Shown one piece after another: positions 1 to 39,624 of a stretch of 42,846 nt of DNA. Numbering within the stretch: position 1 is the stretch's first letter; the number at the start of each line of letters is the position of its first letter. A program made the translations under genes and the position numbers. This DNA is from Candidatus Eiseniibacteriota bacterium (GTDB lineage Bacteria; Eisenbacteria; RBG-16-71-46): positions 1 through 42,846 of the forward strand of contig DAIUEO010000007.1 of the NCBI GenBank assembly GCA_036845125.1, in the 5' to 3' direction. The notes below the pieces were generated by a model. That model was given only the letters and a program-made list of their open reading frames with translations. It was not told where the DNA came from and did not search any database.

Positions 1-15
1 TCGTGAGAAAGCACG

Positions 16-615
16 TTACATCACATCAGCCCTTTGTGAGACCACTTCTAGTGCGACTCGCTTTGCACGATCACCTTCAAATCCAAGGAGCGCAACGAGG
101 ACGGCCTCGTTCTCGTTCTCAGGACCCCGAAGATTGGCAAATCCGGGCAATGGCGCAATCCCGCGAATGTCCGCTGAGAGGAGAAACTCGGAGAGGGAGG
201 TCGGGCTCGGATGCTGCTTATACTTTCCTGGCTCCGCGTACATGACGTGGAAGGTTTCAAGGGCAGACAATCCAGCACGAACGAGCGGTGCCCATACACC
301 ATGCGGCACTCCAGAAATGTCGACGTATGCAACCCGGAACTCGGAGATCATATTCACGAGCGCCCCCTGATCGTTGAGGGCAACCACCTGGGGAGCACCG
401 CCGTCCCGCCGGTAGGTCAGAGTTGTGCTCGTAACTTCAGTAATCTCGAAGCAGTTGCGAGACCGGTGCGCGGCGCAAATGTTCCAGATGGGGGCTCGAG
501 CCCGTGGTTCAGGACTTGGAGCGCTAAAGACATAGGCAGCGTCAGGAGAGAGATCGGACAATCCCGGACTCTGAAGACGCAAGGTCTTCCCAGCCGAAGG
601 GCGTCGCGGTGTCAC
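16..615 (-). CDS. Hypothetical protein (199 aa), last gene of the island operon; no motif recognised
   Basis: ORF track 16..615. GTG start 615-613 overlaps the TGA stop 614-612 of the upstream ATPase gene (GTGA), which suggests translational coupling. TAA stop at 18-16. Same low G+C as its neighbours. The first ~45 residues are Pro/Ser/Arg-rich, so the exact start is uncertain. Confidence 0.55.
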   Translation of the reverse strand: MTPRRPSAGKTLRLQSPGLSDLSPDAAYVFSAPSPEPRARAPIWNICAAHRSRNCFEITEVTSTTLTYRRDGGAPQVVALNDQGALVNMISEFRVAYVDISGVPHGVWAPLVRAGLSALETFHVMYAEPGKYKQHPSPTSLSEFLLSADIRGIAPLPGFANLRGPENENEAVLVALLGFEGDRAKRVALEVVSQRADVM

Positions 616-2522
616 TCCGGTGCGTCCGAGGACTCGTAAAAAGCTGAGAACATCGCCATTTGCTGGGGCAGTTCGTCGACTGACGCGGGCTGACGTCCCA
701 GGAGTGCCCCAAGGGCCCGCGAGGGATTCGTGAGAACCTCCAATAGGGTCTCAGCCGCAAACGTTGAACGTCGCTTCCTTCGATGTGAATACTCAAAGAA
801 TGGGGCAAAGATTGGGTGAAGGCGGAACTCGTCGTCGCGCATTTCGTGTTGCGACGTGGCCTTGGTGCGAGGCGTAGCCTCAAAGGCAAGATTGGCAACT
901 CCCTCGTTCAGCAGAGTGAGAACTCTGTCCCGAGCATCTGCGCCGCCTGTTACAACGAAGGAGTTCCGCTCAGGACTCTTTCCCACGGGGTCTCTGGCAA
1001 ATTCGAAAAACACTTTTCCCAGAGCCAGGACAAGCCGCTTGATCTCCGAACCGTGATCCGTCAGTCCGTCGAGCTGATCAAGTCTACGCTTCCCTACAGT
1101 CCGCGCGGCCAGCGTTTGGTGCTTCGATGGTACCGAGCTTACGTTCATGAAGTTGCCATTGACGTCTGCAGTCAGCTCGCTCAGCGATTCATCTATCAGT
1201 TCTAGGAAGTACCTGATGTTTCCAGAGGCCAGGGCCACAAGGGTGCGAGCTCCCGCGTAGTACTTTCGAATCCGCGCACCCTTCCGCCCCTTCGATAACC
1301 AAAACAGGCTCGCGTACCCATAGTTACCGAGTCGTGTTGCCCACGCGTCTGGATCAGACATCCAACTTCCAGCGAGTGCCGTAATGCTCTCGGAAGTGCC
1401 CTCCGACCAATACTTCAGAAAGTAGATCTCGGTCGCGGGCATCCTCTCAGCCCACTCAACTAGCACTGTGTCTTTCGATGAAAGGATATTGGCCTTTACT
1501 TCGTCAGCAATGCGCTTGCAATCCAGGAGCTCAGCTTCTCGAGCGAAAGGCAACTCTGGCAGGAACTCGTCTAACGTCTCTGCGACATTGATACCTCTAC
1601 TTCGGGCGAGACCAAGACGATGTTCAACAACCTGGCGGGCAAAGAGCTCAAAGCTCTCCTCTGCAATATCGATTGCGACATAGTCATCTGGAGTCGACAG
1701 TACATCTGTGGTGTCAATTGTCGCTCGCGATCGAAGCCCGCCACGCTTGATGCCAATTTTGTACGACAGCGGTGGTTCAGAGTGCTTTATGTACGTATTC
1801 ACCAGTGCCTGTTGCGAATCGAGCAGGTTTTCATATTCATCAATACAGCAGAATATGTGGCGCCCCTGTAGGGGAGGGTGATTCCCGACGGTCTCAACGA
1901 AGGATCTCAGAGGCGCTTCCGCGATAGAGAGTATCGGCAACTCGAGACGGGACGGGTTGTTTACATATAGCTCGAGAGCTACAAGAGCCTCGGTAAGGGC
2001 TGGCAGCAGCTGCTCGGACCGGGCGCATTCGCGGATTCCAAACGTTGAGGCAAAGCCGCTGAGATCGAGGGCGAGTGATGCTTGACGGGACTCAAGCCAT
2101 TGCACCAGGCGGCAGAGTTCGATCGCGCATAACAGATTGAAATAGTGGGCGAAGACCTTGTCCCACCCCGACGGCGAAAGTCCCGGGCCCTGAAAGGCAA
2201 GGACACGGTTCTTGTTGATACGAAGGTAGATACCGTAATAGGCGACGGACTCCGGCGTGGCGTTCTGGTGGCCGCGGTCTATGTCCGATTGTGCTCGTGC
2301 GGCCGTCGCGTCGAATCTCATGGAGCGAAGAGTAGTGGTCTTTCCCGTACCTCTACCGCCTATCAAAAGACATGGCCGCGGGATTTCGAGCTTTGCGAAG
2401 TAAGGTGGTGCGATGAACAGTTTTGCAAACAGGTCGGAAGACCACTCAGCGCGATAGTCAGAAAAGAGGTCGCCAAGACCCCGCAGAGGCGTCGCGCCCT
2501 CCCCTAGTGCGGCCGCCGTCAT
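612..2522 (-). CDS. Large P-loop NTPase, 636 aa (AAA/ORC-Cdc6-like class suspected, unverified)
   Basis: ORF 612..2567. Walker A is LLIGGRGTGKTTTL and Walker B-like HIFCCIDEYENL lies about 190 residues later. Preferred start is ATG 2522-2520 (MTAAALGEG...), which overlaps the TGA 2521-2519 of the upstream ORF (ATGA). Confidence 0.85.
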   Translation of the reverse strand: MTAAALGEGATPLRGLGDLFSDYRAEWSSDLFAKLFIAPPYFAKLEIPRPCLLIGGRGTGKTTTLRSMRFDATAARAQSDIDRGHQNATPESVAYYGIYLRINKNRVLAFQGPGLSPSGWDKVFAHYFNLLCAIELCRLVQWLESRQASLALDLSGFASTFGIRECARSEQLLPALTEALVALELYVNNPSRLELPILSIAEAPLRSFVETVGNHPPLQGRHIFCCIDEYENLLDSQQALVNTYIKHSEPPLSYKIGIKRGGLRSRATIDTTDVLSTPDDYVAIDIAEESFELFARQVVEHRLGLARSRGINVAETLDEFLPELPFAREAELLDCKRIADEVKANILSSKDTVLVEWAERMPATEIYFLKYWSEGTSESITALAGSWMSDPDAWATRLGNYGYASLFWLSKGRKGARIRKYYAGARTLVALASGNIRYFLELIDESLSELTADVNGNFMNVSSVPSKHQTLAARTVGKRRLDQLDGLTDHGSEIKRLVLALGKVFFEFARDPVGKSPERNSFVVTGGADARDRVLTLLNEGVANLAFEATPRTKATSQHEMRDDEFRLHPIFAPFFEYSHRRKRRSTFAAETLLEVLTNPSRALGALLGRQPASVDELPQQMAMFSAFYESSDAPE

Positions 2523-3091
2523 TGTGGTCTCAGGAGCTGAGTCCAGTTGCCGATTCCCGGTGCCCACAATACGGGGAGAGTGCTATCAGGGACACCATGC
2601 TCGAAGGCCAGGGTGAGGCCGAGTGCGCTGAACCCAAAGAGCGGATGTTCGCCAACCTTCATGAAGGGTTCAAGCGTGAGCACCGCCGCATAACGTTGTA
2701 GGAACGATCTAAGAGTGGCCTGGAAATTTGAGATTGGTGGAGTTATCGAGGGTGAGTTGAGCGCTTGTACGGAGTACGTGAGATCAAGCACGTGGACCGG
2801 AAGTAGTGTGATAGGGATCGAGGCCGTAGTCACATTCTTGAGAGCAGTCTCGGTTGCAACGAGGGCGATACAGAAGACTGGAAAGCTTCGGAGGGCGTAG
2901 GCCTCCGCGAATGATTTCGGGGATGCAGAATTGTACGCGCGTCGCCATGTTTGTATTATCTGCTGACCGGTACCCAAGAAGTCGTCCACAAAGACAACGG
3001 GGGTTCCTGTTTGGACTTTGGACAGAGCCTCGCGTGGATCACAAAAACGGCCATCCTCGAGTTGTGCGACGGAACGGAGCTTCCGGCACAA
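2519..3091 (-). CDS. Phosphoribosyltransferase (PRTase)-like domain, C-terminal segment of an apparently frameshifted gene
   Basis: TPVVFVDDFLGTGQQ fits the PRPP-binding loop pattern of type I PRTases: hydrophobic run, two acidic residues, then T/S-G. The frame is open upstream of the TTG at 3091 back to a TAG at about 3151-3149. Stop is TGA 2521-2519. Confidence 0.65.
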   Translation of the reverse strand: MCRKLRSVAQLEDGRFCDPREALSKVQTGTPVVFVDDFLGTGQQIIQTWRRAYNSASPKSFAEAYALRSFPVFCIALVATETALKNVTTASIPITLLPVHVLDLTYSVQALNSPSITPPISNFQATLRSFLQRYAAVLTLEPFMKVGEHPLFGFSALGLTLAFEHGVPDSTLPVLWAPGIGNWTQLLRPQ

Positions 3092-3510
3092 GGTCTTGCC
3101 CGAGTCAGTGGGCGAGGATGCTCTCCCTCGACAGGAGTGAAGATCAAGCTATCAAGGAAAGCGCTCGGATCACCGCTTGAGGGTATTCGATTGGTGAGAA
3201 TGGCGTCCTCGAGACGTTGAAATGCGCACAACAGAAGACGATCGGAAGCGCGGTCGGAATAGAACACGAGATTGTCCAGCAGGACTGCCCCAAGAAGCCG
3301 GTCCTCGTTGTCTGCGAAATTGCCGAGCCAAGCGGATGGCCGGAGATTCGGCTCCTGTGACCACAGGCCTGCTCTCTTGAGGGCCTCAGCCTTTTCCATC
3401 ACGCTCTTGACGTAGAGGTCCGTGCGCACTTGAGCTCTGGAAAGGGGTGGCGTTGAAGGCACGACTCCTGAGCGACGTGGGAGAGTACCGCGGCGAACAA
3501 GAGCCTTCAA
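2956..3510 (-). CDS. N-terminal segment of the same PRTase-like gene (184-aa ORF)
   Basis: The first ~130 residues look protein-like (…WLGNFADNEDRLLGAVLLDNLVFYSDRASDRLLLCAFQRLEDAI…). The last ~55 residues are R/P/S/C-rich and look out of frame. It overlaps the next ORF by 136 nt in another frame. The start is uncertain: TTG 3510 or ATG 3399. Confidence 0.5.
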   Translation of the reverse strand: MKALVRRGTLPRRSGVVPSTPPLSRAQVRTDLYVKSVMEKAEALKRAGLWSQEPNLRPSAWLGNFADNEDRLLGAVLLDNLVFYSDRASDRLLLCAFQRLEDAILTNRIPSSGDPSAFLDSLIFTPVEGEHPRPLTRARPCAGSSVPSHNSRMAVFVIHARLCPKSKQEPPLSLWTTSWVPVSR

Positions 3511-3656
3511 ATGCTTAGGGACCCTGGCCTAGCGCAAGGGAGCTTTCTGCACTTCAGGACAGCATGCGCTTGAAAACCTTCCTGCGCGCGCTCCGGAGGG
3601 TACGGGTCCCTGGGACCGAACCGAACCGACCGCGTCGCCCCATTGAAAGGCAGAGC

Positions 3657-4204
3657 ATGCCGCTAACCACGATCGATCCCACCGCCGCCCTGGTCGTCAT
3701 CGACCTGCAGAAGGGCATTGTTGGGCTGCCGCTCGCACATCCGGCGGGCGAGGTCGTCCAGCGTGCCGATCGGCTGGCCAGCGCATTCCGCGCGCGTCGA
3801 TTGCCGGTCGTGCTCGTGAACGTGACCGGCGGCGCGCCGGGCCGCACTGATGCGGGGATGCCCGGGGCGCGCGCCCTCCGGATTGGGCGGAGCTCGTTCC
3901 CGAGCTGGAGCGGCACCCGGACGATCTCCTCATCAGCAAGCAGCGGTGGGGTGCGTTTCTCGGTACGACACTCGATGCCGATCTGCGGCAGCGTGGTGTC
4001 ACGCAGATCTTTCTCGTGGGGATCTCGACCACACGCGGCGTGGAGTCCACGGCGCGCAGCGCCTTCGAGCTGGGCTACAACGTGGTGCTGGTCGTGGACG
4101 CGATGACCGATCGCAACGGTGAAGCGCATCGCAACAGCGTCGCCAACGTCTTCCCCTCGCTGGGTGAGATCACCACGTGTGATGAGGTGCTGAAGCGGCT
4201 GTAG
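3657..4204 (+). pseudogene. Isochorismatase-family cysteine hydrolase, disrupted by a frameshift
   Basis: The N-terminal part (MPLTTIDPTAALVVIDLQKG…VVLVNVTGG) lies in the frame of ORF 3564..4106. The C-terminal part (RPPDWAELVPELERHPDDLLISKQRWGAFLGTTLDADLRQRGVTQIFLVGISTTRGVESTARSAFELGYNVVLVVDA…) lies in the frame of ORF 4016..4204, which is open from 3851. The frames switch within the GCGCGCGC run at 3867-3874. ATG 3657 is preceded by GAAAGG. Confidence 0.7.
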
Positions 4205-4211
4205 TGGTGCG

Positions 4212-4919
4212 TCACAGCTCCCGGCGTTTGCGGAACACCGAGGTTTGGCGGCGGGAGAATTCCACCGTGCCGCCGCCGCGCAGCCGGGCGATCAGCTCGC
4301 CGCGCACGCCGGTGTCGAAGCCCTCGACGTGATCGAGATTCACGATCGCGGCACGGCTTGCGCGGAAGAAGCGGTCGGGGTCGAGGCGGCGCTCGAGGGC
4401 GGCCATCGAATGGAGTAGCAGCGGGTGATTCTCGCCGAAATGGAGCTGCACGTAATTGCCGGCGGCTTCGATCCAGGCGACGTCCCGCAGGCGGACGAGC
4501 ACGGCACTCAGGCCGTCGCGCACCAGCAGCGGGCGGTCGGGGTCGAGCCACTCGCTGGGCGGAGCGGCGGTCACCCGCTCGCGTACCCGGCCCAGGGCGG
4601 CAGCGAGGCGCGCGGGAGCGATCGGCTTGAGCAGGTAGTCGATCGCTCCAACCTCGAACGCGTGGAGCGCGTGCTCGTCGTAGGCCGTGGTGAACACGAC
4701 CTGCGGCGCATCCTCCAGCGACTCGAGCAGCTCGAAGCCGGTGCGCTGGGGCATCTGGATGTCGAGGAACATCAGCTCGGGGGCGAGCGTCGCCATCGCG
4801 CGCTCGGCCTCGACGGCGCTTCCGGCTTCGCCGACGACCTCGATCTCGGGATGCGCGGCCAGCAGCCGGCGCAGCTCGCGACGCGCGAGAGGCTCGTCGT
4901 CGACGATCAGCGCCTTCAC
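4212..4919 (-). CDS. LytR/AlgR-family response regulator (receiver plus LytTR DNA-binding domain), 235 aa
   Basis: VKALIVDDEPLARRELRRLL…FLDIQMP is the receiver domain. The C-terminal …IEAAGNYVQLH…RASRAAIVNLDHV is LytTR-like. The GTG start overlaps the kinase stop (GTGA at 4916-4919). Confidence 0.9.
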   Translation of the reverse strand: MKALIVDDEPLARRELRRLLAAHPEIEVVGEAGSAVEAERAMATLAPELMFLDIQMPQRTGFELLESLEDAPQVVFTTAYDEHALHAFEVGAIDYLLKPIAPARLAAALGRVRERVTAAPPSEWLDPDRPLLVRDGLSAVLVRLRDVAWIEAAGNYVQLHFGENHPLLLHSMAALERRLDPDRFFRASRAAIVNLDHVEGFDTGVRGELIARLRGGGTVEFSRRQTSVFRKRREL

Positions 4920-5962
4920 GCGGGAGCACCCGCAGGCAGCGTGACCTCGGCCACGACGTGGCCATCGTGCTCGGCGAGCGCAAACGCGCTGCGCGCGCCG
5001 TAGATGAGCTGGAGGCGGCTCTTCGCGTTGGCGAGGCCGACGCCGGTATCCGCGGCTTTCCCCAAGCGTCCGGGGTTGGTGACGCGCAATCGCACGAGGT
5101 CGCCTTCGCGCCACGCCTTCACGTTCACTTCGCCGCCCCTCTCCCGCGCCGCGATGCCGTGCTTCACGGCGTTCTCGACCAGGGTCTGCAGCAGCATCGG
5201 CGGCAGGCGCGTCGCGCGCACCGCCTCGTCGGCCTCGATGCTCCACGTGAGCCGGTTCTCGAAGCGGGCGGACTCCACCCGCAGGTAGCTCTCGACCGCC
5301 GTCAGCTCTTCGCTCAGCGGCACCTGCTCGCGCCGGCCGGCCTGGAGCGCGTAGCGCAACAGCTCCGACAGCTCGGTGACGAGCTCGCGCGCGCGCGCGG
5401 GATCCTCGGGGATCAGCGCGCGCAGCACGTTCAGCGCGTTGAACAGGAAGTGTGGCTGGATCTGCGAGTGGAGCGCCTGGAGCTGGGTGTCGCGCGCAAC
5501 CACCTCGAACCGCAGACGCTGGATCTCGCTGTCGCGCCAGCGCGCGAACCACTGGGCGCCGATGTAGATCGCGGTCCATAGCAGCAGTGTGAAGATCCAG
5601 TTGAACGTGGTGGCGAACATCACCCCGGGCGTGCTGGTCTTCATTGTGTAGCCGCGGGTCACGAACAGCCCGACCGCCCACACCAGGAGCTCGGCAATGA
5701 CCGCCGCGACCACGACGCCCAGGACGAGGCGCGGCAGCAGCCTGCCGAAGCCGAGCCCGAGCCAGCCGCGTCGCAGCACGACGCCGCGCCAGAGGTGCGA
5801 GACCACTCCTCCGATCGTGGCGCCGAGCAGCGTGGTCGCATCCATCCGTACGCTGCCGTAGCCGAACGCACGGGACATCGCGACCCCGAGCAGTCCATAG
5901 GCGCCCCAGCCGAGAATCTGACACAGCACGTAGGCGCGGCTTACGCGCGGCACTTCGTTCAT
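4916..5962 (-). CDS. LytS/YehU-type sensor histidine kinase with N-terminal transmembrane segments, 348 aa
   Basis: …LQALHSQIQPHFLFNALNVLRALI… is the His_kinase-type H box. The HATPase region is LLQTLVENAVKHGI…GVGLAN. ATG 5962-5960 overlaps the upstream stop (ATGA). Confidence 0.9.
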   Translation of the reverse strand: MNEVPRVSRAYVLCQILGWGAYGLLGVAMSRAFGYGSVRMDATTLLGATIGGVVSHLWRGVVLRRGWLGLGFGRLLPRLVLGVVVAAVIAELLVWAVGLFVTRGYTMKTSTPGVMFATTFNWIFTLLLWTAIYIGAQWFARWRDSEIQRLRFEVVARDTQLQALHSQIQPHFLFNALNVLRALIPEDPARARELVTELSELLRYALQAGRREQVPLSEELTAVESYLRVESARFENRLTWSIEADEAVRATRLPPMLLQTLVENAVKHGIAARERGGEVNVKAWREGDLVRLRVTNPGRLGKAADTGVGLANAKSRLQLIYGARSAFALAEHDGHVVAEVTLPAGAPA

Positions 5963-6570
5963 GCAGGCGCCCCCGCGTGCGCGGTCAGCCGGCGCGCATG
6001 GAACAACAGCGCCGGCGCGGCCGCGAGATAGCAGGCGCTGACGTAGAACAGCACCGGCGAGAACGAATCGCGCCCGAGTGCGATCGCGAGTGCATACGCC
6101 CCGACCGAAACTCCGACTCCGAGGAAGATGTAGACCGGCGTGCGGTGGAGCCAGGCGTAGGGCAGGAAGTGTCCGCCGCCGACGGCCACCAGCGCCGCCG
6201 GCACGTAGGCGGGCTCGAGCGAGTAGACGAGCAGCACCGCCGGAAGCGCCACGATCTGCGACATCGCGAGCTGGATCGCCAGCGGCCGAAGCCGGTCCCC
6301 CTGCGAGGGCCGCGCGCGGAGCTTCCGCTCGAGCAGGAACGCGAGCGGCAACGCGAGGTTGCCCTGGAACAGCGTGATCAGCGCGGCCACGCGCACCGGA
6401 AGCATCTGACCGAGCACGGCGCAGATCGCGAGCGTCAGTCCGAAGGCGATCAGGAACGGCGCGCCACCGGCCGAGCTGGCGCTCACGTCGTCCAGCGCCC
6501 GTTCGATGTCGTCCATCGGCTTCCTCGTCACCGGCGGGGCCGCGCTCTCGACGGCGCTCAGGACGTTCAT
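5959..6570 (-). CDS. Integral membrane protein of unknown function, 203 aa
   Basis: This is the tail of ORF 5959..7320. It has several hydrophobic helices (FLIAFGLTLAICAVLGQMLPV…, IVALPAVLLVYSL…, VYIFLGVGVSVGAYALAIAL…). ATG 6570-6568 overlaps the TGA of the upstream hydrolase gene, and its own stop overlaps the kinase ATG. Confidence 0.6.
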   Translation of the reverse strand: MNVLSAVESAAPPVTRKPMDDIERALDDVSASSAGGAPFLIAFGLTLAICAVLGQMLPVRVAALITLFQGNLALPLAFLLERKLRARPSQGDRLRPLAIQLAMSQIVALPAVLLVYSLEPAYVPAALVAVGGGHFLPYAWLHRTPVYIFLGVGVSVGAYALAIALGRDSFSPVLFYVSACYLAAAPALLFHARRLTAHAGAPA

Positions 6571-7634: not shown

Positions 7635-8942
7635 GTGCCGCGAACGCGCTGGAGCCCCGTGCGGGCGATCGAGGTCGCCCTGGCTTTCCTGATGGCGGTC
7701 GTGGCTCCGCAGGCGGTGCCAGCCGCGGAGCCGCCGCGTCCGATTGTGATCACGCCGGACGCGGTCTGGGACGGTGTGTCCGATGCGCCGCATCGCGGCT
7801 GGCTCGTGGTCGTGAGCGGGAATCGCATCGACGCGGTCGGCCCGGCGGACCGCATGACCTTTCCGGCGGACGCGCAGCACATCGAGCTTCCGGGGGCGAC
7901 GCTGATCCCCGGTCTCATCGAAGGGCATTCCCACCTCTTCCTTCATCCCTACAACGAGACGCTCTGGGATGATCAGGTCCTCAAGGAGCCGTTCGCGTAC
8001 CGGATGATCGAGGCGGTGGCGCACGCCCGCGCCACGCTCGAAGCAGGTGTCACCACGACGCGGGATCTCGGCACCGAGGGCGCATTCGACGGCGACGTAC
8101 AGCTCGAGCGCGCGATCGAGAAGGGTGTGGTCCCCGGCCCGCGGATCATCTCGACGACGCGCGCGATCGTCGCCACCGGAAGTTACGGACCGCATCGCAG
8201 CGCCTACGCCTTCGATCCCCCGCAGGGGGCCGAGGAGGCGAGCGGTGCGGAGGAAATCACCCGCGTCGTGCGCAGCCAGATCGGTCATGGCGCCGACTGG
8301 ATCAAGGTGTACGCCGACTACCGCTGGGGCCCGGGCGGCGAAGCGCGACCGACGTTCAGCCTCGGCGAGCTGCGGGTGCTGGTCGAGACGGCCCGCGGGA
8401 GCGGCCGGCCGGTCGCGGCACACGCCTCGACCCCGGAGGGAATGCGGCGCGCGACGCTGGCCGGCGTCGAGACCATCGAGCACGGCGACGCCGGCACCGC
8501 CGAGGTGTTTCGCCTCATGAAGAAACACGGCGTCGCGCTCTGTCCGACGATCGCGGCTGCGGAAGCGTATGCGACCTATTTCCATGGATGGGAGAAGGGC
8601 AAGAAGCCCGCGACGCCCGAGCTGGACGCGAAGCGCGCCAGCTTCAAGGCCGCGCTCGCCTCCGGCGTCACCATCAGCTTCGGCGGTGACGTCGGGGTCT
8701 TCCCGCACGGCGAGAACGTGCGCGAGATGGAGGACATGGTCGAGTACGGCATGACACCGCTCGCGGCGCTGCGCTCGGCCACCAGCATCAACGCCAGGGT
8801 GTTCCATCTCGAGGACCGGCTGGGGCGGATCGCGCCCGGCTACCTTGCCGACCTGGCGGCGTTCGACGGCGACCCGACGAAGGACATCCGCAGCCTGCGC
8901 CGCGTCCGCTTCGTGATGAAGGACGGCGCCCGCGTGCGCTAA
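7635..8942 (+). CDS. Amidohydrolase-family metallo-hydrolase with a signal-like N-terminus
   Basis: …[20 protein letters not shown] carries the HxH metal motif, followed by …[10 protein letters not shown]…IEHGD… and …[12 protein letters not shown]. The start is uncertain; GTG 7635 gives [30 protein letters not shown]. Confidence 0.8.
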
Positions 8943-9008
8943 CCGCGGCGTTTCAGCAGCCCGGCGCGGCCCTCCCCCGAGAACTCCCCCTTGACTCCCG
9001 ACTGCGTA

Positions 9009-9025
9009 TGCTGAAATATCAGCAC
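9009..9025 (+). promoter_or_regulatory. Candidate operator TGCTGAAATATCAGCAC (inverted repeat TGCTGA-N4-TCAGCA) upstream of the blaI-like gene
   Basis: An identical 17-mer recurs at 11631-11647. It overlaps a -10-like AAATAT placed 17 nt after TTGACT (8991-8996). It is an AT-rich dyad in an otherwise GC-rich genome. Confidence 0.5.
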
Positions 9026-9111
9026 TGCTGAAGGGCAGCAACCGAAACTTCGACACTGCAGCAGCTGGAAGTTTGATTCTCGTTCCTTTTCGTTCAGTCG
9101 CCCTTCTTTTT

Positions 9112-9129
9112 ACCCGCTCTGGAGCGGGT
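9112..9129 (+). promoter_or_regulatory. 8-2-8 inverted repeat ACCCGCTC-TG-GAGCGGGT in the blaI-like leader
   Basis: The arms are perfect. It ends 19 nt before ATG 9148 and is preceded by a T-rich run. Its function is unknown; it could be a protein site or a leader hairpin. Confidence 0.3.
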
Positions 9130-9147
9130 GAACCTGAGAGAACCCGC

Positions 9148-9549
9148 ATGCGCAAGCGACCCGTCACCGAGAGTCTCAGCCGCCGCGAACGCCAGGTCAT
9201 GGAGATCCTGCACCGCCGCGGACCATCCACGGTGGCCGAGATCATGCAGGCGATGCCCGACCCGCCGACCTACTCGGCGGTGCGCTCCATCCTCCGCATC
9301 CTCGGCGGGAAGGGCCTGGTGAGTCACCACGAAGACGGTCCGCGCTACGTCTATGCACCCGCCGGCTCGACCGAAAAGACGCGCGATGACGTCCTGGCGC
9401 ACGTGGTCCAGACCTACTTCTCGGGCTCGATCGAACACGCGGTGAGCGCGCTGCTGCTGCTTTCGGACACGAAGCTGAACGACACCGATCTCAAACGGCT
9501 GCGCGAGAAGATCCGTCGCGCGCGCCAGAGTGAAGGGAGCCGGCCATGA
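9148..9549 (+). CDS. BlaI/MecI/CopY-family transcriptional repressor, 133 aa
   Basis: MRKRPVTESLSRRERQVMEILHRRGPSTVAEIMQAMPDPPTYSAVRSILRILGGKGLVSHHEDGPRYVYAP… is a winged-helix penicillinase-repressor pattern. Its stop overlaps the next ATG (ATGA at 9546-9549). Confidence 0.9.
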   Translation: MRKRPVTESLSRRERQVMEILHRRGPSTVAEIMQAMPDPPTYSAVRSILRILGGKGLVSHHEDGPRYVYAPAGSTEKTRDDVLAHVVQTYFSGSIEHAVSALLLLSDTKLNDTDLKRLREKIRRARQSEGSRP

Positions 9550-30868: not shown

Positions 30869-32263
30869 ATGACCGGGCCCGGTTACCTCAGCACGGTGAG
30901 TGGCGCATACGCGCTTGCGTGCTGCTTGGTTGGCGTTTCCGCGGCCCCGACCGACGCCGCGCCGTATCGTGTCACCGGTACCGGCTACGTGACGACTTCC
31001 GGTCACATGATGCACCCGGGTTGGTTTTTCAAGTACCACCTCAACGCGAGCATCACCTTCGATCCGGTGCCGGGCGAAGCCGTCATCGTTCTCGAGTACG
31101 CAGGGACGGACACCTCGACGCAGCGCTCGACCAACCGGTATCACGTGCGCCGCGGGCGCATCTTCCAGGTGGACGACAAGGGCGCCGAGATCCTTCCCGG
31201 CTCGACTGGCGACGTCCATGGAGCCACGGTGGCCGCACTCCATCCCGCCCTGGTCCTCAACGCGATGCGCGAGCGTCCCGAGTGCGTTCGGCGCGTCGAC
31301 GACGGCCTGGTGTTCGCATGGAACGACGAGCTGTGGACGGTTAGCCGGGATCCCGCTGCGGCCGATCGCGTGGCCGGGTTGCGCTTCGAGCACGCGAGCT
31401 ACGTTTACGGCGACCAGGCGCAGGAGGTTCGTTACGAAGGCTGGCCCCGCGATTCGTCCGCGACCTCACCCGGGAGCGTCGTGGTGAACACGCTCGGCCG
31501 CGAAGTGCTGCGGATCGATTTCGCCACCAGCGAGAAGGCCGACAGCGTGGGCATCGCGGCGGGCGACCGGAAGCGCGATCGCCAGTGGGTTGCGCCGGTG
31601 TCGGAGATCGTGCCGCGCGAGATCGCGCCGCACGTCTTCTCGATCGATCTCGTGTCCCTCAACATGCGGGTCTTCGTCGCCGAGTTCAGCGACCACCTGA
31701 TGGTGTTCGAGGGCGCCTGGGATTCGCGGAACTCCGACCCGATTGTCACGCGCCTTCACGAGCACTTCAGGAAGCCGGTGCGCTACTACGCCTTCAGCCA
31801 CATCCACAGCCAGTACGTCGCTGGGACGAGAAGCTATGTCCACGAAGGAGCCACTGTGCTCGTCCCGCCGACCACGGCGCCCCTGATGGAGACCATGGTC
31901 CAGGAAGGTCGCCGGCTGCGCCCCGACGCGCTCGCTGCCGAGCCGCGGGCGCTGCGCATGGAATCCGTGTCCAAGCGGCGCACGCTGAAGGACCGGATGA
32001 ACACCGCGGAGGTCTACAACGTCGAGTCCGATCACACGGACGAGTATTTGATCGTCTACTTCCCTCGGCAGAAGGTGCTGCTCACTGGCGACCTCCTCTT
32101 CTATTACCCCGGGAAGCCGCTCTCCGGCCGCTCGAGGAAGCTGTGCGAAACGGTGCGCAAGCTCGGACTCGACGTCGAAACCTATGTCCCGACATGGCCC
32201 TTGGACGGCTATGGCACCAAGAACGTGGTGACCCGCGAGGAGATGCGAACCGCCTGCCCTTGA
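30869..32263 (+). CDS. Exported hypothetical protein, possibly a degenerate MBL fold, 464 aa
   Basis: ATG 30869 (MTGPGYLSTVSGAYALACCLVGVSAAP). YYAFSHIHSQYVAG resembles a degraded HxHxDH region, and …LLTGDLLFY… lies downstream. The function call is weak. Confidence 0.6.
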   Translation: MTGPGYLSTVSGAYALACCLVGVSAAPTDAAPYRVTGTGYVTTSGHMMHPGWFFKYHLNASITFDPVPGEAVIVLEYAGTDTSTQRSTNRYHVRRGRIFQVDDKGAEILPGSTGDVHGATVAALHPALVLNAMRERPECVRRVDDGLVFAWNDELWTVSRDPAAADRVAGLRFEHASYVYGDQAQEVRYEGWPRDSSATSPGSVVVNTLGREVLRIDFATSEKADSVGIAAGDRKRDRQWVAPVSEIVPREIAPHVFSIDLVSLNMRVFVAEFSDHLMVFEGAWDSRNSDPIVTRLHEHFRKPVRYYAFSHIHSQYVAGTRSYVHEGATVLVPPTTAPLMETMVQEGRRLRPDALAAEPRALRMESVSKRRTLKDRMNTAEVYNVESDHTDEYLIVYFPRQKVLLTGDLLFYYPGKPLSGRSRKLCETVRKLGLDVETYVPTWPLDGYGTKNVVTREEMRTACP

Positions 32264-32382
32264 GGGGTCGACACACCGGGCGTTGCACGGGGGTGGACCC
32301 TCCGGGGGCCGATCCTGTAGCCTTTGTCTCCGTTCGCTGGCTCGTGCTCCTGCGTTCGTCCGACCCTCCATGGGAGCACACT

Positions 32383-33750
32383 GTGTCCGACTCGACCCTT
32401 CCCCGGCATTCCGCGGCGATCCACCCGCACGACTCCAGCCCGCCGGACTCCCCTTCCGATTTCGGGCGTGAAGCAGATCAGCTCCTGCACGACCGGGAGC
32501 GCGAGAACGAGCTGCTGCGCCGGGAGCTGGAGTTCACCCGCGCCCAGCTGCAGCGCGCCGAGGCCGGCCTGCGCGAAGCCGACCGTCGCAAGGACGATTT
32601 CCTCGCGACCCTCGCGCACGGGCTGCGCAACCCGATCGCACCGATCCGGAACGCCATCGAGATCATGCGGCTCTCCGAGGACCCGCAGAACGTGGGCCTC
32701 GCGCGCGACGTGCTCGACCGCCAGGTCCGCCAGCTTTCGCGGATCGTCGACGATCTGATCGACGTGAACCGGATCGTGGAGCGGAAGATCGACCTGCGCC
32801 GGACCCGCATCGTCCTCGACACCATCATCGGCATGGCGGTCGAAGCGTCTCGGGTCTACATCGAGTCCTGCCGTCACCGGCTGGTGGTGTCGCTGCCGCC
32901 GCGGCCGGTCTACGTGAACGCCGATGCCGGGCGGCTCGCCCAGGCGCTCATCAACCTGCTCAACAACGCGGCGAAGTACATGAACCCGGGGGGCAGGATC
33001 TGGATCACGGCCGAGCGCGTGCGGCGCGACGGCGACCCGCTGAGCGCGCCGTCCGAGGTGCGCATTTCCGTTCGCGATATCGGCATTGGCGTCGACCCGA
33101 CGCTGCTCCCCCGCGTGTTCGATACGTTCGGCCAGAGCGGGGCGGGCCAGCCGCGCGGCGGACTCGGCACCGGGCTCACGCTCGCGCGCAGCCTGGTGGA
33201 GATGCACGGCGGCCGCATCGAGGCGCACAGCGCCGGACTCGGCCGCGGAAGCGAATTCGCCATCCATCTGCCGGCGGTGCCGCCGGTGCCGTCGGTGCTG
33301 CACGACGAGGCGGAGCTCGGGCCGCCGACCAGCGTGACGGTCGGCACCCGGCTGCGCGTGCTGGTGGTGGACGACAACGCCGACCAGGTGCGAAGCCTGA
33401 GCACGCTGCTCACGCTGCTGGGGCACGACGTGGATGTCGCCGCCGACGGTCCCACCGCGCTCGAAGCCGTGGAGCGCATCCGGCCGGACGTCGCCCTGAT
33501 CGACATCGGCCTCCCCGGGATGAGCGGCAACGAGGTCGCGCGCAGCATCCGTGAGCGCCCCGAGCTCGCAGGAGTGTTCCTGGTCGCCCAGACCGGATGG
33601 GGGCAGGAGTCCGACCGCGAGCAGTCCGAGCAGGCCGGCTTCGCGGAGCACATCGTGAAACCGGTGACGATGGAGGAGCTGCAGCGCATCCTGGCGCGCG
33701 CGGAGTCCCGCAAGCGCGACCGCCGGACGCCGGAGCGCCGGGACGTGTAA
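32383..33750 (+). CDS. Hybrid sensor histidine kinase (coiled coil, HisKA, HATPase_c, receiver), 455 aa
   Basis: GTG 32383 lies 6 nt after GGGAG. H box DDFLATLAHGLRNPIAPI. N box LLNNAAKYM. G boxes DIGIGV and GLGTGLTLA. Receiver RVLVVDDNADQ…DVALIDIGLPGMSG…VKP. Confidence 0.85.
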   Translation: MSDSTLPRHSAAIHPHDSSPPDSPSDFGREADQLLHDRERENELLRRELEFTRAQLQRAEAGLREADRRKDDFLATLAHGLRNPIAPIRNAIEIMRLSEDPQNVGLARDVLDRQVRQLSRIVDDLIDVNRIVERKIDLRRTRIVLDTIIGMAVEASRVYIESCRHRLVVSLPPRPVYVNADAGRLAQALINLLNNAAKYMNPGGRIWITAERVRRDGDPLSAPSEVRISVRDIGIGVDPTLLPRVFDTFGQSGAGQPRGGLGTGLTLARSLVEMHGGRIEAHSAGLGRGSEFAIHLPAVPPVPSVLHDEAELGPPTSVTVGTRLRVLVVDDNADQVRSLSTLLTLLGHDVDVAADGPTALEAVERIRPDVALIDIGLPGMSGNEVARSIRERPELAGVFLVAQTGWGQESDREQSEQAGFAEHIVKPVTMEELQRILARAESRKRDRRTPERRDV

Positions 33751-34120: not shown

Positions 34121-35059
34121 ATGGAACTGCTCGAGGCCATCGGGAACACCTCGCTCGTGCGACTGCGGCGGATCGTACCGCCGGACGCCGCGGAGATCTT
34201 CGTCAAGCTCGAGTGGGAGAATCCGACCGGCAGCGTCAAGGACCGGATGGCGCACGCGGTGATCTCGGCTGCTGAAAACGACGGCCGGCTGAAGCCCGGC
34301 GGCACCGTGGTGGAGTACACCGGGGGCAGCACCGGCGCCTCGCTCGCCCTGGTCTGCGCGGCCCGCGGCTATCGGATCCGCATCGTCAGCTCCGATGCAT
34401 TCAGCCGCGAGAAGCTCGACCAGATGGCGGCGCTCGGCGCCGAGATCACGCTGGTCGCGAGTGAAGACGGCCGGACCACGAAGCAGCTCATCCTGAACAT
34501 GATCGAGAAGGCGCGCGAGCTGAGCCGCGAGCCCGGCGTCTACTGGACCGACCAGCTCAACAACCACGACAGCATCGCGGGCTACTTCCCGCTGGCCGAG
34601 GAGATCTGGCGCCAGACCGACGGCCGGGTGGACGCGTTCGTCCACTGCGTCGGAACCGCGGCGTCCTCGCGCGGCGTCGCCACCGTGCTCAAGCGCCATC
34701 GGCCCGGCGTGCGGATCGTCGCCGTCGAGCCGGGCGAATCCCCGGTGCTGAGCGGGAAACCGCCCGGGCCCCACAAGATCGAAGGCGTGGGCATCGGCTA
34801 TACGCCGCCGCTCTGGGAACCCTCGCTCGTGGACGAAGTAATCGCGGTGCCCACCGCCGAGGCGAAGGAAATGGCCCGCCAGCTGGCCCGCGAAGAGGCG
34901 CTGTTCGCGGGCACCTCGTCGGGGGCCAATGTCGTCGCGGCGATCGAGGTGGCGAAACGGCTCGGGCCCGGCCGCACGGTCGTCACGCTGATGGCCGACT
35001 CCGGACTCAAGTACCTCAATACCGACATCTATCGCCGCTCGACTGCCGGCGTCGGCTAG
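34121..35059 (+). CDS. Cysteine synthase family PLP enzyme (CysK/CysM-like), 312 aa
   Basis: …FVKLEWENPTGSVKDRMA… carries the PLP lysine. …VEYTGGSTGASLALVCAARGY… and …FAGTSSGANVVAA… are also present. Confidence 0.9.
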   Translation: MELLEAIGNTSLVRLRRIVPPDAAEIFVKLEWENPTGSVKDRMAHAVISAAENDGRLKPGGTVVEYTGGSTGASLALVCAARGYRIRIVSSDAFSREKLDQMAALGAEITLVASEDGRTTKQLILNMIEKARELSREPGVYWTDQLNNHDSIAGYFPLAEEIWRQTDGRVDAFVHCVGTAASSRGVATVLKRHRPGVRIVAVEPGESPVLSGKPPGPHKIEGVGIGYTPPLWEPSLVDEVIAVPTAEAKEMARQLAREEALFAGTSSGANVVAAIEVAKRLGPGRTVVTLMADSGLKYLNTDIYRRSTAGVG

Positions 35060-35367
35060 CCTTCGATCTTGTAGATCTCGCGACGGCCGTGATCCACGAG
35101 GTCGTGGTAGCCCTTCATGAGCGCTTCCATTTCCTTCATGGCGGTCTCGTTCTGCCCGCGCCCCTCGAACATGGCCTCGAGGTCCTGGAGGTCCTTCGCT
35201 TCCATCTCCGCGACGACGGTCCAGTAGCGCTCCGCACAGAAGTCCGTCATCACCTTCATGCGCGGCATGCCCATCGTTTCGCCGAGCTTGGACATGGCGA
35301 GGAACTTCTCGACGAGAGGCTTCACTTTGCCGGGCTTACAGAACATGATCTCGCGAACCAGAATCAT
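35056..35367 (-). CDS. Small hypothetical cytoplasmic protein, 103 aa
   Basis: ATG 35367 is preceded by AGGAG. The sequence MILVREIMFCKPGKVKPLVEKF…HGRREIYKIEG has good coding character. It is convergent with cysteine synthase and overlaps it by 4 nt. Confidence 0.6.
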   Translation of the reverse strand: MILVREIMFCKPGKVKPLVEKFLAMSKLGETMGMPRMKVMTDFCAERYWTVVAEMEAKDLQDLEAMFEGRGQNETAMKEMEALMKGYHDLVDHGRREIYKIEG

Positions 35368-35572
35368 GGCGCTCTCCTGTTTCGGGTAGGGGGTCAATGC
35401 GGACGACATCAACCGTAGCGCCGGCATCCTTTCACGGGCAAACAACGAGCCCCAGGGGCACCGCATCCGCATGGACGCGATGCCGAACACGTGACCTGGT
35501 CCCTCCTGGTGACCCAGGCCAGCGTTCAAACCCTGGGGCCGTACATCGAGCCCCATCCGTGGAGCTCTTATC

Positions 35573-35596
35573 AAAAGGGCGGGATCGAAAGCCGCC
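35573..35596 (-). terminator. Possible intrinsic terminator after the CsbD-like gene
   Basis: The minus-strand RNA reads GGCGG-CUUUCGAUC-CCGCC followed by CUUUUGAU. It starts 8 nt after the stop at 35604. The stem is short (5 bp). Confidence 0.3.
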
Positions 35597-35603
35597 TCGT
35601 GAT

Positions 35604-35813
35604 CTATTGCATGGTGCTCAGCGGAAGCAGCCAGTCGTCGACCGCGCGCTCCGCCTGTTCCGCGGCCATTGCGTAGCGCACCTGCAGGCGCCCGACGAGA
35701 CGCTCCCGGCGGCCGTCGATGATGTCCAGATCATCGTCGGTCAGCCTGCCCCAGCGCTCTTTCGCGGTGCCTCGAATCTCGTTCCAGTGTCCCTGGATCT
35801 GATCCCAGTTCAT
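35604..35813 (-). CDS. CsbD-family general stress protein, 69 aa
   Basis: MNWDQIQGHWNEIRGTAKERWGRLTDDDLDIIDGRRERLVGRLQVRY matches the CsbD pattern. Confidence 0.85.
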   Translation of the reverse strand: MNWDQIQGHWNEIRGTAKERWGRLTDDDLDIIDGRRERLVGRLQVRYAMAAEQAERAVDDWLLPLSTMQ

Positions 35814-35905
35814 GAAACTTCACCTCCTCGAATCTCACGCGGCCTCGTGTTGCATGAATGCCGGGGTCCGGCAGGCATTCACCGGGTCGGCGTGTTTTCC
35901 GACCG

Positions 35906-36055
35906 TCAGACCGGTCTGCGACCCTCGATCACCCGGATCAGGATCGACGCCAGTGCGAGCAGCAGCAGCACGTGAATGAAGCCGCCGAGCGTGTACGACG
36001 TGACCATGCCGAGCAGCCAGAGGAAGAGCAGGACGACTACGAGTGTCCACAGCAT
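35906..36055 (-). CDS. lmo0937-family small membrane protein, 49 aa
   Basis: MLWTLVVVLLFLWLLGMVTSYTLGGFIHVLLLLALASILIRVIEGRRPV. ATG 36055 is preceded by GGAGG. It is the only credible part of the 572-aa shadow ORF 35906..37624. Confidence 0.7.
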   Translation of the reverse strand: MLWTLVVVLLFLWLLGMVTSYTLGGFIHVLLLLALASILIRVIEGRRPV

Positions 36056-38635: not shown

Positions 38636-38910
38636 GTTCCGCCTCCTACTCGGCCGTGTGGTTGCTGCTTCGTCCACGGACGTCCATGCGACGTGGACGA
38701 TCCACCATCCTTCAGCAATGCGCAGGCCAGCCCGGGCGGATCGGACGGAAGCCGATGCGGCGCGGGCTTCTCGGGGGCGGAATGAGGAGAACACGACGGC
38801 CCGGGGCGGAGGGAAACCCGTGGTCGAATGCAGAACCTACAACGGCTGCCGCCCCCTCCCGGTCACCGTTCCGTGCATGGAATCGGTGCAGGCGGCGGAG
38901 TTGCGGGCGC

Positions 38911-38925
38911 GGCCTTCAAGTTGCA
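38911..38925 (+). promoter_or_regulatory. Candidate sigma-54 promoter GGCCTTCAAGTTGCA (-24 GG / -12 TTGCA spacing)
   Basis: GGC-N7-TTGCA has the canonical spacing and lies about 100 nt upstream of ATG 39025. A second weaker match, GGCGGCGGAGTTGC, is at 38891-38904. A sigma-54-dependent activator is encoded 1.4 kb downstream. Confidence 0.25.
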
Positions 38926-39024
38926 GAGGGCCAGGGTGGTCGCCGCGACGCAGGCATCTCCCCGACTCCCAGGATGCAGGTGGCGCGGCGACCCACTGAC
39001 AACGAACGCACAAGGAGGCATCTC

Positions 39025-39504: not shown

Positions 39505-39624
39505 GCAGAGCATGGTGATGCAAGACCTGGGCGGTGAGTCTATCGCAGGCAGCGGCTACCCTATCCGTGCCGATAACCGGTAGATTTCACCGCCCTTATT
39601 TCTTCATGGGGACCGGAGGTCTCA

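What the first reader, a model, noticed from the sequence alone, without database searches (positions are those of the whole stretch)
16..3510. Coupled PRTase-like / 636-aa P-loop ATPase / orphan-protein operon: candidate conflict (anti-phage) system
What the sequence shows directly:
- Three reading units lie head to tail on the minus strand with 4-nt overlaps at both junctions (ATGA at 2519-2522, GTGA at 612-615).
- The first unit carries a PRPP-loop-like motif, VVFVDDFLGTGQQ.
- The second has Walker A GGRGTGKTT and Walker B CCIDEYENL, plus about 400 further residues with no motif I recognise.
- The third unit (199 aa) has no motif I recognise.

Established background: PRTase-like proteins act as effectors in some retron defence systems. 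Large STAND/AAA-type NTPases paired with small effectors on low-G+C islands are a recurrent design of prokaryotic immune systems.

Inference: this is a self-contained NTPase-controlled conflict module. No reverse transcriptase ORF is present upstream; only 146 nt separate the operon from a host-composition gene. So it is not a standard retron arrangement. I cannot place the trio in any named system from memory, and that needs a search.
Basis: partly seen in the sequence, partly recalled or inferred. Interest (0 to 1): 0.85.

Follow-up and report, generated by a model that had tools for sequence, protein, structure and literature searches.

The report
Broken copy of predicted PRTase–ATPase defence operon
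This is a decayed, insertion-interrupted copy of a widespread four-gene bacterial cassette (nucleotide-attacking enzyme, ORC/Cdc6-like ATPase, CARF-type sensor, DNA methylase) that is already catalogued as a predicted immune system but, as far as I could find, has never been tested.

Summary
In detail: the coordinates, both 4-nt overlaps, the PRPP loop, Walker A/B and the low G+C are all as described.

The trio is not self-contained or unplaced.
- Gene 1 is Pfam PRTase-CE (PF24390).
- Gene 2 is Pfam ORC-CDC6-like (PF24389, E 6e-114).
- The "orphan" is the N-terminal 189 residues of a ~313-aa protein of the PADLOC CARF6 family.

In 76 of 80 species-level genomes from about 10 phyla these three genes are joined by a fourth, an N6-adenine-type methyltransferase. 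The usual order is PRTase, ATPase, CARF6-like, MTase, with abutting genes.

The window copy is dead.
- The PRTase gene has a 1-nt deletion in a C run near 3110.
- Gene 3 is cut at codon 189 by a multi-copy IS4/5-family element (window 1-47), which also ends the contig.
- The MTase gene is not in the window.
- An independent metagenome contig is 100% identical, so these are real lesions.

Best reading: a relic of a methylation-linked immune module. In that module an AAA+ switch and a CARF-type sensor would control a PRPP- or nucleotide-depleting effector related to retron III-A PRTases. The mechanism is inferred, not shown.

It is a new member of a known, experimentally untested kind. Interest is moderate to low.

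The parts
1..47 (-). Terminal 47 nt of a multi-copy IS4/5-family insertion sequence. It includes the 16-nt inverted repeat GAAGTGGTCTCACAAA. The transposase gene continues beyond the window and contig end.
   Evidence: The same 40-mer lies about 50-110 nt from the ends of 11 further metagenome contigs and inside 2 others, followed by 7 different flanks besides the window's own. A complete copy of about 0.86 kb with perfect inverted repeats lies at about L098 469-1323. Its ORFs hit DUF4096 (2e-30) and DDE_Tnp_1 (1.8e-16).
48..51 (.). CTAG target site at the IS/gene 3 junction.
   Evidence: The flanks of all other copies diverge immediately after CTAG (CTAA in one copy). CTAG also flanks both ends of the complete copy in L098.
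16..615 (-). Truncated gene 3. Codons 1-189 (615-49) are the N-terminal domain of a CARF6-family protein. Codons 190-199 and the TAA stop (18-16) are read from the IS. The CARF domain is lost.
   Evidence: PADLOC PDLC01913 gives E 1.8e-33 over profile positions 12-188 of 305. tblastn against a 315-aa homologue aligns residues 1-189 only. Homologues continue with '...DPxPxVxPVVGVPGF...' where the window does not.
612..2522 (-). Gene 2: intact 636-aa ORC-CDC6-like AAA+ ATPase. Walker A is at 2360-2334 and Walker B at 1850-1824.
   Evidence: Pfam PF24389 gives E 5.7e-114 over profile positions 2-568 of 571. The window protein has every residue that is invariant across the other 21 sequences of alignment A1. 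The AF2 model has pLDDT 85.7, and its top PDB matches are Cdc6/Orc1, MalT, NLRP9 and BrxC.
2519..3429 (-). Gene 1: PRTase-CE pseudogene. The probable start is GTG 3429. A 1-nt deletion in the C run at 3112-3110 shifts the frame. The PRPP loop VVFVDDFLGTGQQ is at 2998-2960.
   Evidence: Pfam PF24390 hits both halves: E 3.6e-05 for profile positions 2-73 and 1.2e-26 for 80-252. tblastn with a 304-aa homologue gives two segments in different frames that meet at 'VEGEHPRP|TDSGKT'. PADLOC PRTase_III-A gives 3.6e-14.
3430..3656 (.). Divergent intergenic region between the operon and the isochorismatase-like gene. It marks the right-hand boundary of the low-G+C island.
   Evidence: The composition step is. 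No sigma-70-like promoter and no Rfam match were found, so the regulatory content is unknown.

Best explanation
**What it is.** Window 1-3429 holds the decayed remnant of a horizontally acquired four-gene cassette. The intact cassette reads PRTase-CE, ORC/Cdc6-like AAA+ ATPase, a protein with an N-terminal domain plus a CARF domain (CARF6 family), and an N6-adenine-type methyltransferase.

**How the intact system most likely works (inferred).**
- The methyltransferase marks the host's own DNA.
- The ATPase acts as an ATP-driven switch or scaffold, probably DNA-binding. Together with the CARF-type nucleotide-binding partner it detects invading DNA, or a nucleotide signal of infection.
- It then unleashes the PRTase-CE effector. 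The effector collapses PRPP or nucleotide pools and stops phage replication. Experimentally studied relatives do this: the retron III-A3 PRTase effector and ShosT.

**State of this copy (shown).**
- The effector gene carries a 1-nt deletion.
- An IS4/5-family element has cut the third gene at codon 189, just ahead of the region shared by the CARF6 models, and separates the operon from whatever lies downstream.
- No methyltransferase gene is in the window.
- Only the ATPase gene is intact.
- Linkage of the four genes across phyla is also shown.

**Confidence split.** The immune role and the order of events are inferred. I put about 0.9 on 'decayed member of this cassette', about 0.75 on 'the cassette is an anti-invader system', and about 0.35 on the specific methylation-gated PRPP/nucleotide-depletion mechanism.
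For: **Family assignments.**
- Pfam PRTase-CE and ORC-CDC6-like.
- PADLOC CARF6 and retron III-A PRTase models.

**Fourth gene in homologues.**
- It carries FxGxG and NPPF motifs.
- Its best PDB relatives are M.BseCI (1.1e-15) and the type I HsdM of EcoR124II (2.5e-14).
- It hits PADLOC mad2 and MTase_II models.

**Linkage.**
- 76 of 80 genome loci from about 10 phyla have all four genes. The order is PRT-ATP-CARF6-MT in 70, MT first on the same strand in 5, and MT on the opposite strand in 1.
- Projected inter-gene gaps have a median of zero or less. Called genes overlap by 4-14 nt.
- A 28%-identical ATPase relative on an IMG/VR contig keeps the same four-gene order.

**Structure.**
- The CARF6-like model (pLDDT 89.5) matches the CARF proteins Card1, Can2, Csm6, Cdn1 and Csa3 at probability 0.96-1.0.
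- The ATPase model matches Cdc6/Orc1 and BrxC.

**Mobility and patchiness.**
- The region is a low-G+C island.
- The closest homologue is only 66% identical and sits in an Acidobacteriota MAG.
- Integrases, resolvases and transposases are the commonest neighbours.
- Restriction and toxin genes lie next to it in Cupriavidus and Pseudomonas.

**Effector precedent.**
- The ShosT PRTase disrupts purine metabolism (PMC11961720, abstract).

**Decay.** Frameshift; IS junction; IS identity; 100% identical independent contig L100.
Against: - I found no experimental test of this cassette. The two papers that I believe describe it (Nicastro et al. 2023, NAR 51:11479; Makarova et al. 2020, NAR 48:8828) are not in the library, so their content is from memory only.
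- PADLOC v2 has no system-level model that the ATPase hits; its best match is a P-loop-only hit at 1.5e-4.
- The neighbour survey shows mobile-element genes but no strong enrichment of known defence families.
- No nucleotide cyclase is linked, so the CARF ligand is unknown.
- The methyltransferase's substrate is not proven. NPPF-type enzymes also include the rRNA and protein methylases METTL5 and HemK, which score at 1.5e-10 and 1.6e-06.
- One genome (Azospirillum, L053) has an apparently intact three-gene version without the methyltransferase. This argues against the methylase being strictly required to protect the host.
Confidence: 0.75

Rival explanations
1. One reading: an intact, self-contained three-gene NTPase-controlled module (PRTase, ATPase and a small orphan protein) that functions as it stands.
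For: The three ORFs have 4-nt overlaps and intact catalytic motifs. One natural three-gene version exists without the methylase (L053).
Against: - The PRTase is split by a frameshift, with no slippery site. The PRTase gene is a single ORF in 78 of the 80 census loci.
- The third ORF stops after 189 of about 313 residues, inside an IS.
- The L053 three-gene version still has a full-length 308-aa third gene.
Confidence: 0.04
2. The frameshift and the truncation are assembly or sequencing artefacts at a contig end, and the real genome carries an intact operon.
For: The lesions lie within 3.1 kb of a contig end. The deletion is in a homopolymer. A neighbouring isochorismatase gene is also split between frames.
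Against: - Contig Ga0208685_1004377, from a different sample, is 100% identical over 3924 nt, including the frameshift and the IS junction, and reads 49 nt further into the IS.
- The terminal sequence is a bona fide IS end seen at many other loci.
Confidence: 0.05
3. The cassette is primarily a selfish addiction module of restriction-modification type. Methylase plus toxic effector would ensure its own maintenance on mobile elements, with little or no net anti-phage role.
For: - A methylase is linked to a potentially toxic nucleotide-targeting enzyme.
- The cassette is associated with integrases, resolvases and transposases.
- Gene decay recurs, including of the effector: the window, L016 and L066.
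Against: This is not exclusive of defence, since R-M systems do both. Homologous PRTase effectors are demonstrably anti-phage in retrons and ShosTA. The presence of a CARF-type sensor suggests regulated rather than constitutive action.
Confidence: 0.12
4. The genes serve housekeeping functions: nucleotide salvage by the PRTase, and replication initiation or partition by the ORC/Cdc6-like ATPase.
For: The PRTase fold and the ORC/Cdc6 fold both have housekeeping members.
Against: - The family is rare and patchy. Only 208 50%-identity clusters reach E<=1e-30 among 1.84 billion representatives, scattered over about 10 phyla without regard to taxonomy.
- G+C is foreign to the host.
- The genes are always linked to a CARF-like protein and a methylase.
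- NCBIfam salvage and PRPP-synthetase models do not match; the best is E 0.31.
- The host tolerates inactivation.
Confidence: 0.03

Closest known systems
PRTase-CE / ORC-CDC6-like cassette as catalogued in Pfam (PF24390, PF24389). To my recollection it was described computationally by Nicastro, Burroughs, Iyer and Aravind (NAR 2023, 51:11479), with the third gene corresponding to the 'CARF6' clade of Makarova et al. (NAR 2020, 48:8828).
   Same: The families, gene order and gene overlaps are the same. The window ATPase covers the whole Pfam model.
   Different: This copy is degraded: frameshifted effector, IS-truncated CARF6-like gene, no methylase in the window. I could not read either paper, so what they say about the four-gene unit is unverified here.
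Type III-A retrons with a PRTase-like effector (for example Retron-Eco11, PMC12746101)
   Same: The effector is homologous: PADLOC PRTase_III-A models hit at 3.6e-14. The PRPP loop is similar (VVILTDTIGSGNQ against VVFVDDFLGTGQQ). The experimentally shown output is PRPP depletion with abortive infection.
   Different: There is no reverse transcriptase, no msr/msd RNA and no wHTH partner. Control here is by an AAA+ ATPase, a CARF-like protein and a methylase.
BREX (BrxC ORC/Cdc6-clade ATPase with PglX N6-adenine methylase)
   Same: An ORC/Cdc6-like AAA+ ATPase is encoded with an N6-adenine-type methylase. BrxC is among the structural matches (9zll_A, 9zdx_C). BREX logic is described in PMC12839542.
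   Different: There is no PglZ, BrxA, BrxB or BrxL. The ATPase is about half the size of BrxC. No PADLOC BrxC model is hit. The effector is a PRTase.
CARF sensor-effectors of type III CRISPR-Cas and CBASS (Card1, Can2, Csm6, Csa3)
   Same: The third protein of the cassette contains a CARF-like Rossmann domain (Foldseek probability 0.96-1.0) with a conserved GTKPH loop.
   Different: No Cas10 or CD-NTase cyclase is linked. The CARF protein has no fused nuclease. Its ligand is unknown. In the window the CARF domain itself is deleted.
ShosTA / PsyrTA toxin-antitoxin defence (PRTase toxin)
   Same: A PRTase-family toxin acts on purine and PRPP metabolism (PMC11961720, abstract; bioRxiv 2025.09.30.679545).
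   Different: No DprA-like antitoxin is present in the operon, and the partner set is different.
MADS (methylation-associated defence system)
   Same: The fourth gene of homologues hits the mad2 methylase model (3.4e-13).
   Different: Only the methylase domain is shared. The mad8 hit on the ATPase covers 24 residues at the P-loop. NCBIfam MAD2 scores 17 bits against a cutoff of 720. The other mad genes are absent.

Membership tests
PRTase-CE / ORC-CDC6-like / CARF6-like / MTase four-gene cassette | PRTase-CE domain protein (PF24390) as the first gene | tested here: met
   Both halves hit PF24390 (3.6e-05 and 1.2e-26). The PRPP-loop DD and GxG residues are conserved. However, the gene is frameshifted at about 3110.
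PRTase-CE / ORC-CDC6-like / CARF6-like / MTase four-gene cassette | ORC-CDC6-like AAA+ ATPase (PF24389) immediately downstream, with overlapping stop and start | tested here: met
   E 5.7e-114 over the full-length model. ATGA overlap at 2522-2519.
PRTase-CE / ORC-CDC6-like / CARF6-like / MTase four-gene cassette | Full-length (~313 aa) CARF6-family protein as the third gene | tested here: not met
   Only residues 1-189 are present. The region shared by the CARF6 models (about 168-291 in homologues) is cut off by the IS. The feature is ancestral but now destroyed.
PRTase-CE / ORC-CDC6-like / CARF6-like / MTase four-gene cassette | N6-adenine-type methyltransferase as the fourth gene | tested here: not met
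   No MT hit in window 1-6000 with the family HMM. The contig ends inside the IS. Whether the gene survives beyond the IS is unknown.
Retron type III-A | Reverse transcriptase gene plus msr/msd ncRNA adjacent to the PRTase effector | tested here: not met
   No RT among the called genes next to the operon, nor among the commonest Pfam families of 137 neighbours in 42 loci. No Rfam hit in 1-4500.
BREX | PglZ plus BrxC (about 1200 aa) plus PglX, with BrxA/B/L | tested here: not met
   PADLOC gives no BrxC, PglZ or BrxA/B/L hit for the operon proteins. Only weak PglX-domain hits (2.6e-03) occur, on a homologue's methylase.
Cyclic-oligonucleotide signalling (type III CRISPR / CBASS) with a CARF effector | Linked nucleotide cyclase (Cas10 or CD-NTase) and a CARF domain fused to an effector | tested here: not met
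   No such family appears among the neighbours. The CARF6-like protein has only an N-terminal domain of unknown function.
Experimentally validated anti-phage defence system | Demonstrated protection against phage or plasmid challenge | not testable with these tools
   No paper in the searchable library mentions PRTase-CE or this cassette.

The most novel reading that the evidence does not exclude
The intact four-gene cassette, of which this is a relic, could be a new logic of immunity. In it a methylase-marked genome and a cyclase-less CARF sensor jointly gate a PRPP/nucleotide-depleting PRTase through an ORC/Cdc6-like ATPase. For example, the CARF domain might sense a nucleotide by-product of infection, or the PRTase's or methylase's own product, rather than a dedicated second messenger. 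Nothing here excludes this, and nothing shows it.
Probability: 0.2. Interest if true: 0.75.

Novelty: new member of a known kind. Interest (0 to 1): 0.35.

Why it matters
The window copy itself matters little, because it is an inactivated relic. The family behind it is more interesting.

- It is a strictly linked four-gene cassette found in at least 10 bacterial phyla.
- It combines four themes of prokaryotic immunity in one operon: epigenetic marking, an ORC/Cdc6-like AAA+ switch, a CARF sensor, and a nucleotide-pool effector.
- As far as the searchable literature shows, it has never been tested experimentally.

The census made here gives concrete intact, culturable sources for such a test: Pseudomonas, Cupriavidus taiwanensis, Paraburkholderia dilworthii, Sphingomonas faeni, Prevotella koreensis.

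The window and three other loci (L016, L066, L081) carry broken effector or ATPase genes. This hints that the system is costly when unbalanced.

Tried and rejected
**Literature.**
- 'PRTase-CE', 'CARF6', 'ORC-CDC6-like' and PF24389/PF24390 returned nothing useful.
- Makarova 2020, Burroughs 2015 and Nicastro 2023 are not held under any identifier.
- The 2026 BREX survey does not mention this cassette.

**Searches that found nothing.**
- Profile searches of PDB sequences with the PRTase-CE, ATPase and CARF6-like alignments gave nothing significant.
- A Foldseek search of the CARF6-like model against viral structures gave nothing meaningful.
- NCBIfam gave no family-level names.
- The Rfam and promoter scans of 1-4500 were empty.

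**Defence-island test.** I scanned 137 neighbour ORFs against PADLOC and Pfam. The result was only weakly informative: mobile-element genes and a few R-M methylases, with no dominant defence family.

**Ideas considered and rejected.**
- Programmed frameshifting in the PRTase gene. There is no slippery sequence, homologues are single ORFs, and the one other frame-split copy (L016) breaks elsewhere.
- Retron, BREX, MADS, CBASS/type III CRISPR and ShosTA membership (see the membership tests).
- Effector swapping among distant ATPase relatives. It was not seen: even a 28%-identical relative keeps the PRTase. Contexts of the most distant relatives could not be looked up.

Full report
**1. Observation**

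- The ATGA overlap is at 2522-2519 and the GTGA overlap at 615-612.
- The PRPP-type loop VVFVDDFLGTGQQ is encoded at 2998-2960, Walker A GGRGTGKTT at 2360-2334 and Walker B CCIDEYENL at 1850-1824.
- With the ATG at 2522, gene 2 encodes 636 aa.
- G+C is 0.53-0.58 over the first 3.5 kb, against 0.68-0.73 for most of the remaining window.
- Profile hits show that these are real genes, not chance ORFs.

**2. What the genes are**

- Gene 1 is a Pfam PRTase-CE protein (PF24390). Its two halves, in different frames, hit profile positions 2-73 and 80-252. It also hits the PADLOC models of retron type III-A PRTase effectors (3.6e-14).
- Gene 2 is a full-length member of Pfam ORC-CDC6-like (PF24389, E 5.7e-114). 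Databases name its homologues 'ORC-CDC6 family AAA ATPase'.
- An AlphaFold2 model of the window ATPase (pLDDT 85.7) is most similar to Cdc6/Orc1. The next matches include MalT, NLRP9 and BrxC.
- Gene 3, the 'orphan', matches the PADLOC model 'CARF6--CARF_CARF_CARF' (PDLC01913) at 1.8e-33, but only over profile positions 12-188 of 305.
- A model of a full-length homologue of gene 3 (P0124, pLDDT 89.5) has Card1, Can2, Csm6, Cdn1 and Csa3 as its best PDB matches. All are CARF proteins, matched at probability 0.96-1.0 over about 130-170 columns.
- The region shared by the several CARF6 models is residues about 168-291 of the full-length protein. It contains a nearly invariant GTKPH loop.

**3. 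The real unit has four genes**

Gene calls around three homologues show a fourth, overlapping gene of about 358 aa after the CARF6-like gene. The homologues are in an Acidobacteriota MAG, Cupriavidus taiwanensis and Pseudomonas.

The fourth gene looks like a gamma-class N6-adenine DNA methyltransferase.
- It has FxGxG and NPPF motifs in that order.
- It hits PADLOC mad2 and MTase_II models (about 1e-13).
- Its best solved relatives are M.BseCI and type I HsdM subunits (1.1e-15 and 2.5e-14).
- RNA and protein NPPF-type methylases score lower and are not formally excluded.

I then ran a census. One scan of 185,579 species genomes returned 80 loci, and I searched them with HMMs built from the three seed operons.
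- 76 of 80 loci have all four genes.
- The order is PRTase-ATPase-CARF6-MTase in 70, MTase first on the same strand in 5, and MTase on the opposite strand in 1.
- Three of the remaining loci are cut by contig ends.
- One locus (Azospirillum, L053) truly lacks the methylase.
- Genes abut or overlap.

The hosts span Acidobacteriota, Alpha-, Beta- and Gammaproteobacteria, Myxococcota, Planctomycetota, Chloroflexota, Nitrospirota, Actinomycetota, Bacteroidota, Spirochaetota and Bacillota. ATPase identities do not follow taxonomy.

A 28%-identical relative on an IMG/VR contig keeps the same four genes in the same order.

The ATPase family is modest in size. It has 208 clusters at E<=1e-30 among 1.84 billion representatives.

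**4. This copy is broken, and the breaks are real**

- *Frameshift.* Alignment with a 304-aa homologue shows the frame change at 'VEGEHPRP|TDSGKT'. The cause is a missing base in the C run at 3112-3110. The likely start is GTG 3429 rather than TTG 3510.
- *Truncation.* Homology of gene 3 stops at Leu189 (codon 51-49). The last 10 codons and the stop are foreign.
- *Insertion sequence.* Window position 1 is the end of a 166-kb JGI contig. The terminal 40-mer recurs near the ends of 11 other metagenome contigs and inside 2. It is always followed by CTAG (CTAA in one copy) and then by unrelated flanks.
- *IS identity.* A complete copy in L098 is about 0.86 kb long, has 16-nt perfect inverted repeats and is flanked by CTAG. 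It encodes DUF4096 and DDE_Tnp_1 transposase parts. It is therefore an IS4/5-family element, and by its size and two overlapping ORFs it resembles IS427-like members (the last point from my own knowledge). The IS thus interrupts gene 3 and also explains the contig break.
- *Independent confirmation.* A contig from a different sample (3300027513) is 100% identical to window 1-3924, including the frameshift and the IS junction, and continues into the IS. Assembly error is therefore unlikely.
- *What survives.* The methylase gene is not in the window. Only the ATPase gene is intact. The window ATPase has every residue that is invariant across the other 21 sequences of the alignment.

**5. How the intact system probably works**

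Shown:
- The four genes are linked.
- The catalytic motifs are conserved: PRPP-loop DD and GxGxQ, Walker A/B, NPPF and the CARF GTKPH loop.
- The cassette is distributed horizontally.
- Integrases, resolvases and transposases are its commonest neighbours.
- Restriction, toxin or SMC-like genes lie next to it in two genomes.

From the literature:
- Homologous PRTase effectors act by perturbing PRPP and purine metabolism. They cause abortive infection in Retron-Eco11 (PMC12746101) and in ShosTA (PMC11961720).
- ORC/Cdc6-clade ATPases scaffold the methylation-dependent BREX system (PMC12839542).

Inference:
- The methylase marks self DNA.
- The ATPase, together with the CARF-type partner, senses unmarked DNA or a nucleotide cue.
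- It then licenses the PRTase-CE to deplete PRPP or nucleotides.

What the CARF domain binds is unknown, since no cyclase is linked. Whether the methylase protects the host or generates a signal is also unknown.

Effector or ATPase genes are inactivated in the window, L016, L066 (where the inserted segment encodes an IS1595-like transposase, judged by eye) and L081. This is compatible with a costly or toxic system, but it is only suggestive.

**6. Comparison and novelty**

The families are already in Pfam, NCBI naming and PADLOC. I recall, but could not verify, that the cassette was described computationally by the Aravind group (PRTase-CE) and the Koonin/Makarova group (CARF6).

The cassette is not a retron, BREX, MADS, CBASS/type III CRISPR or ShosTA system. 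Each fails a defining feature.

I found no experimental study of it.

The window locus is therefore a new, degraded member of a known, computationally predicted kind.

**7. Verdict**

A conflict-system origin is likely. 'Self-contained trio', 'orphan' and 'unplaced' are wrong, and this copy is non-functional.
- Interest is 0.35. The locus itself is ordinary decay. The untested four-gene family behind it is a reasonable experimental target.

Noticed in passing
window 1-47 (and L087-L099): A multi-copy IS4/5-family element of about 0.86 kb, with 16-nt perfect inverted repeats and a CTAG target, is active in this population. It sits at 7 or more other distinct sites and breaks many assemblies, including a 201-kb contig of the same sample.
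   Followed up: yes
window 3657-4204 (+): The isochorismatase-family gene next to the operon is also split between reading frames. Pfam profile positions 1-53 lie in one frame and 119-174 in another, and the middle part was not recovered. The gene looks like a second pseudogene at the island border.
   Followed up: partly
L053:7083-10812: Azospirillum sp. TSH64 has an apparently intact three-gene version (PRTase, ATPase, full-length CARF6-like) with no methylase. A convergent hybrid histidine-kinase gene follows directly.
   Followed up: partly
L066:4956-7983; L016:7059-7972; L022:9860-10828; L081:7863-9893: Other genomes also carry damaged copies. In L066 the PRTase gene is interrupted by a ~2-kb insertion that encodes an IS1595-like transposase (judged by eye). 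L016 has a split PRTase, L022 a split CARF6-like gene and L081 a split ATPase.
   Followed up: partly
L005:12008-17872 (Pseudomonas): Immediately downstream of the cassette lie an FRG-domain gene, a DprA-like gene paired with a HAD-PRTase fusion gene, and a 950-aa SMC/AAA_23 protein. This looks like a defence island, with a second PRTase-containing two-gene module.
   Followed up: no
L003:1370-5652 (Cupriavidus taiwanensis): Upstream of the cassette are H-NS, an HNH/ScoMcrA-like nuclease, SSB and a RES-domain protein, all close to the end of a ~327-kb sequence record. This suggests a mobile or accessory region.
   Followed up: no
window 8500-9500, 31500-32500, 35000-36000, 38500-40000: There are further dips in G+C (0.62-0.66 against about 0.70) elsewhere in the window. 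They might mark other acquired segments.
   Followed up: no
L101:4988-10068 (IMGVR_UViG_3300013105_000096): The only relative found in IMG/VR is a divergent copy (28% ATPase identity, 49% G+C) of the same four-gene cassette, on an 18-kb contig classed as viral. Its MTase-like ORF is longer, at 434 aa.
   Followed up: partly
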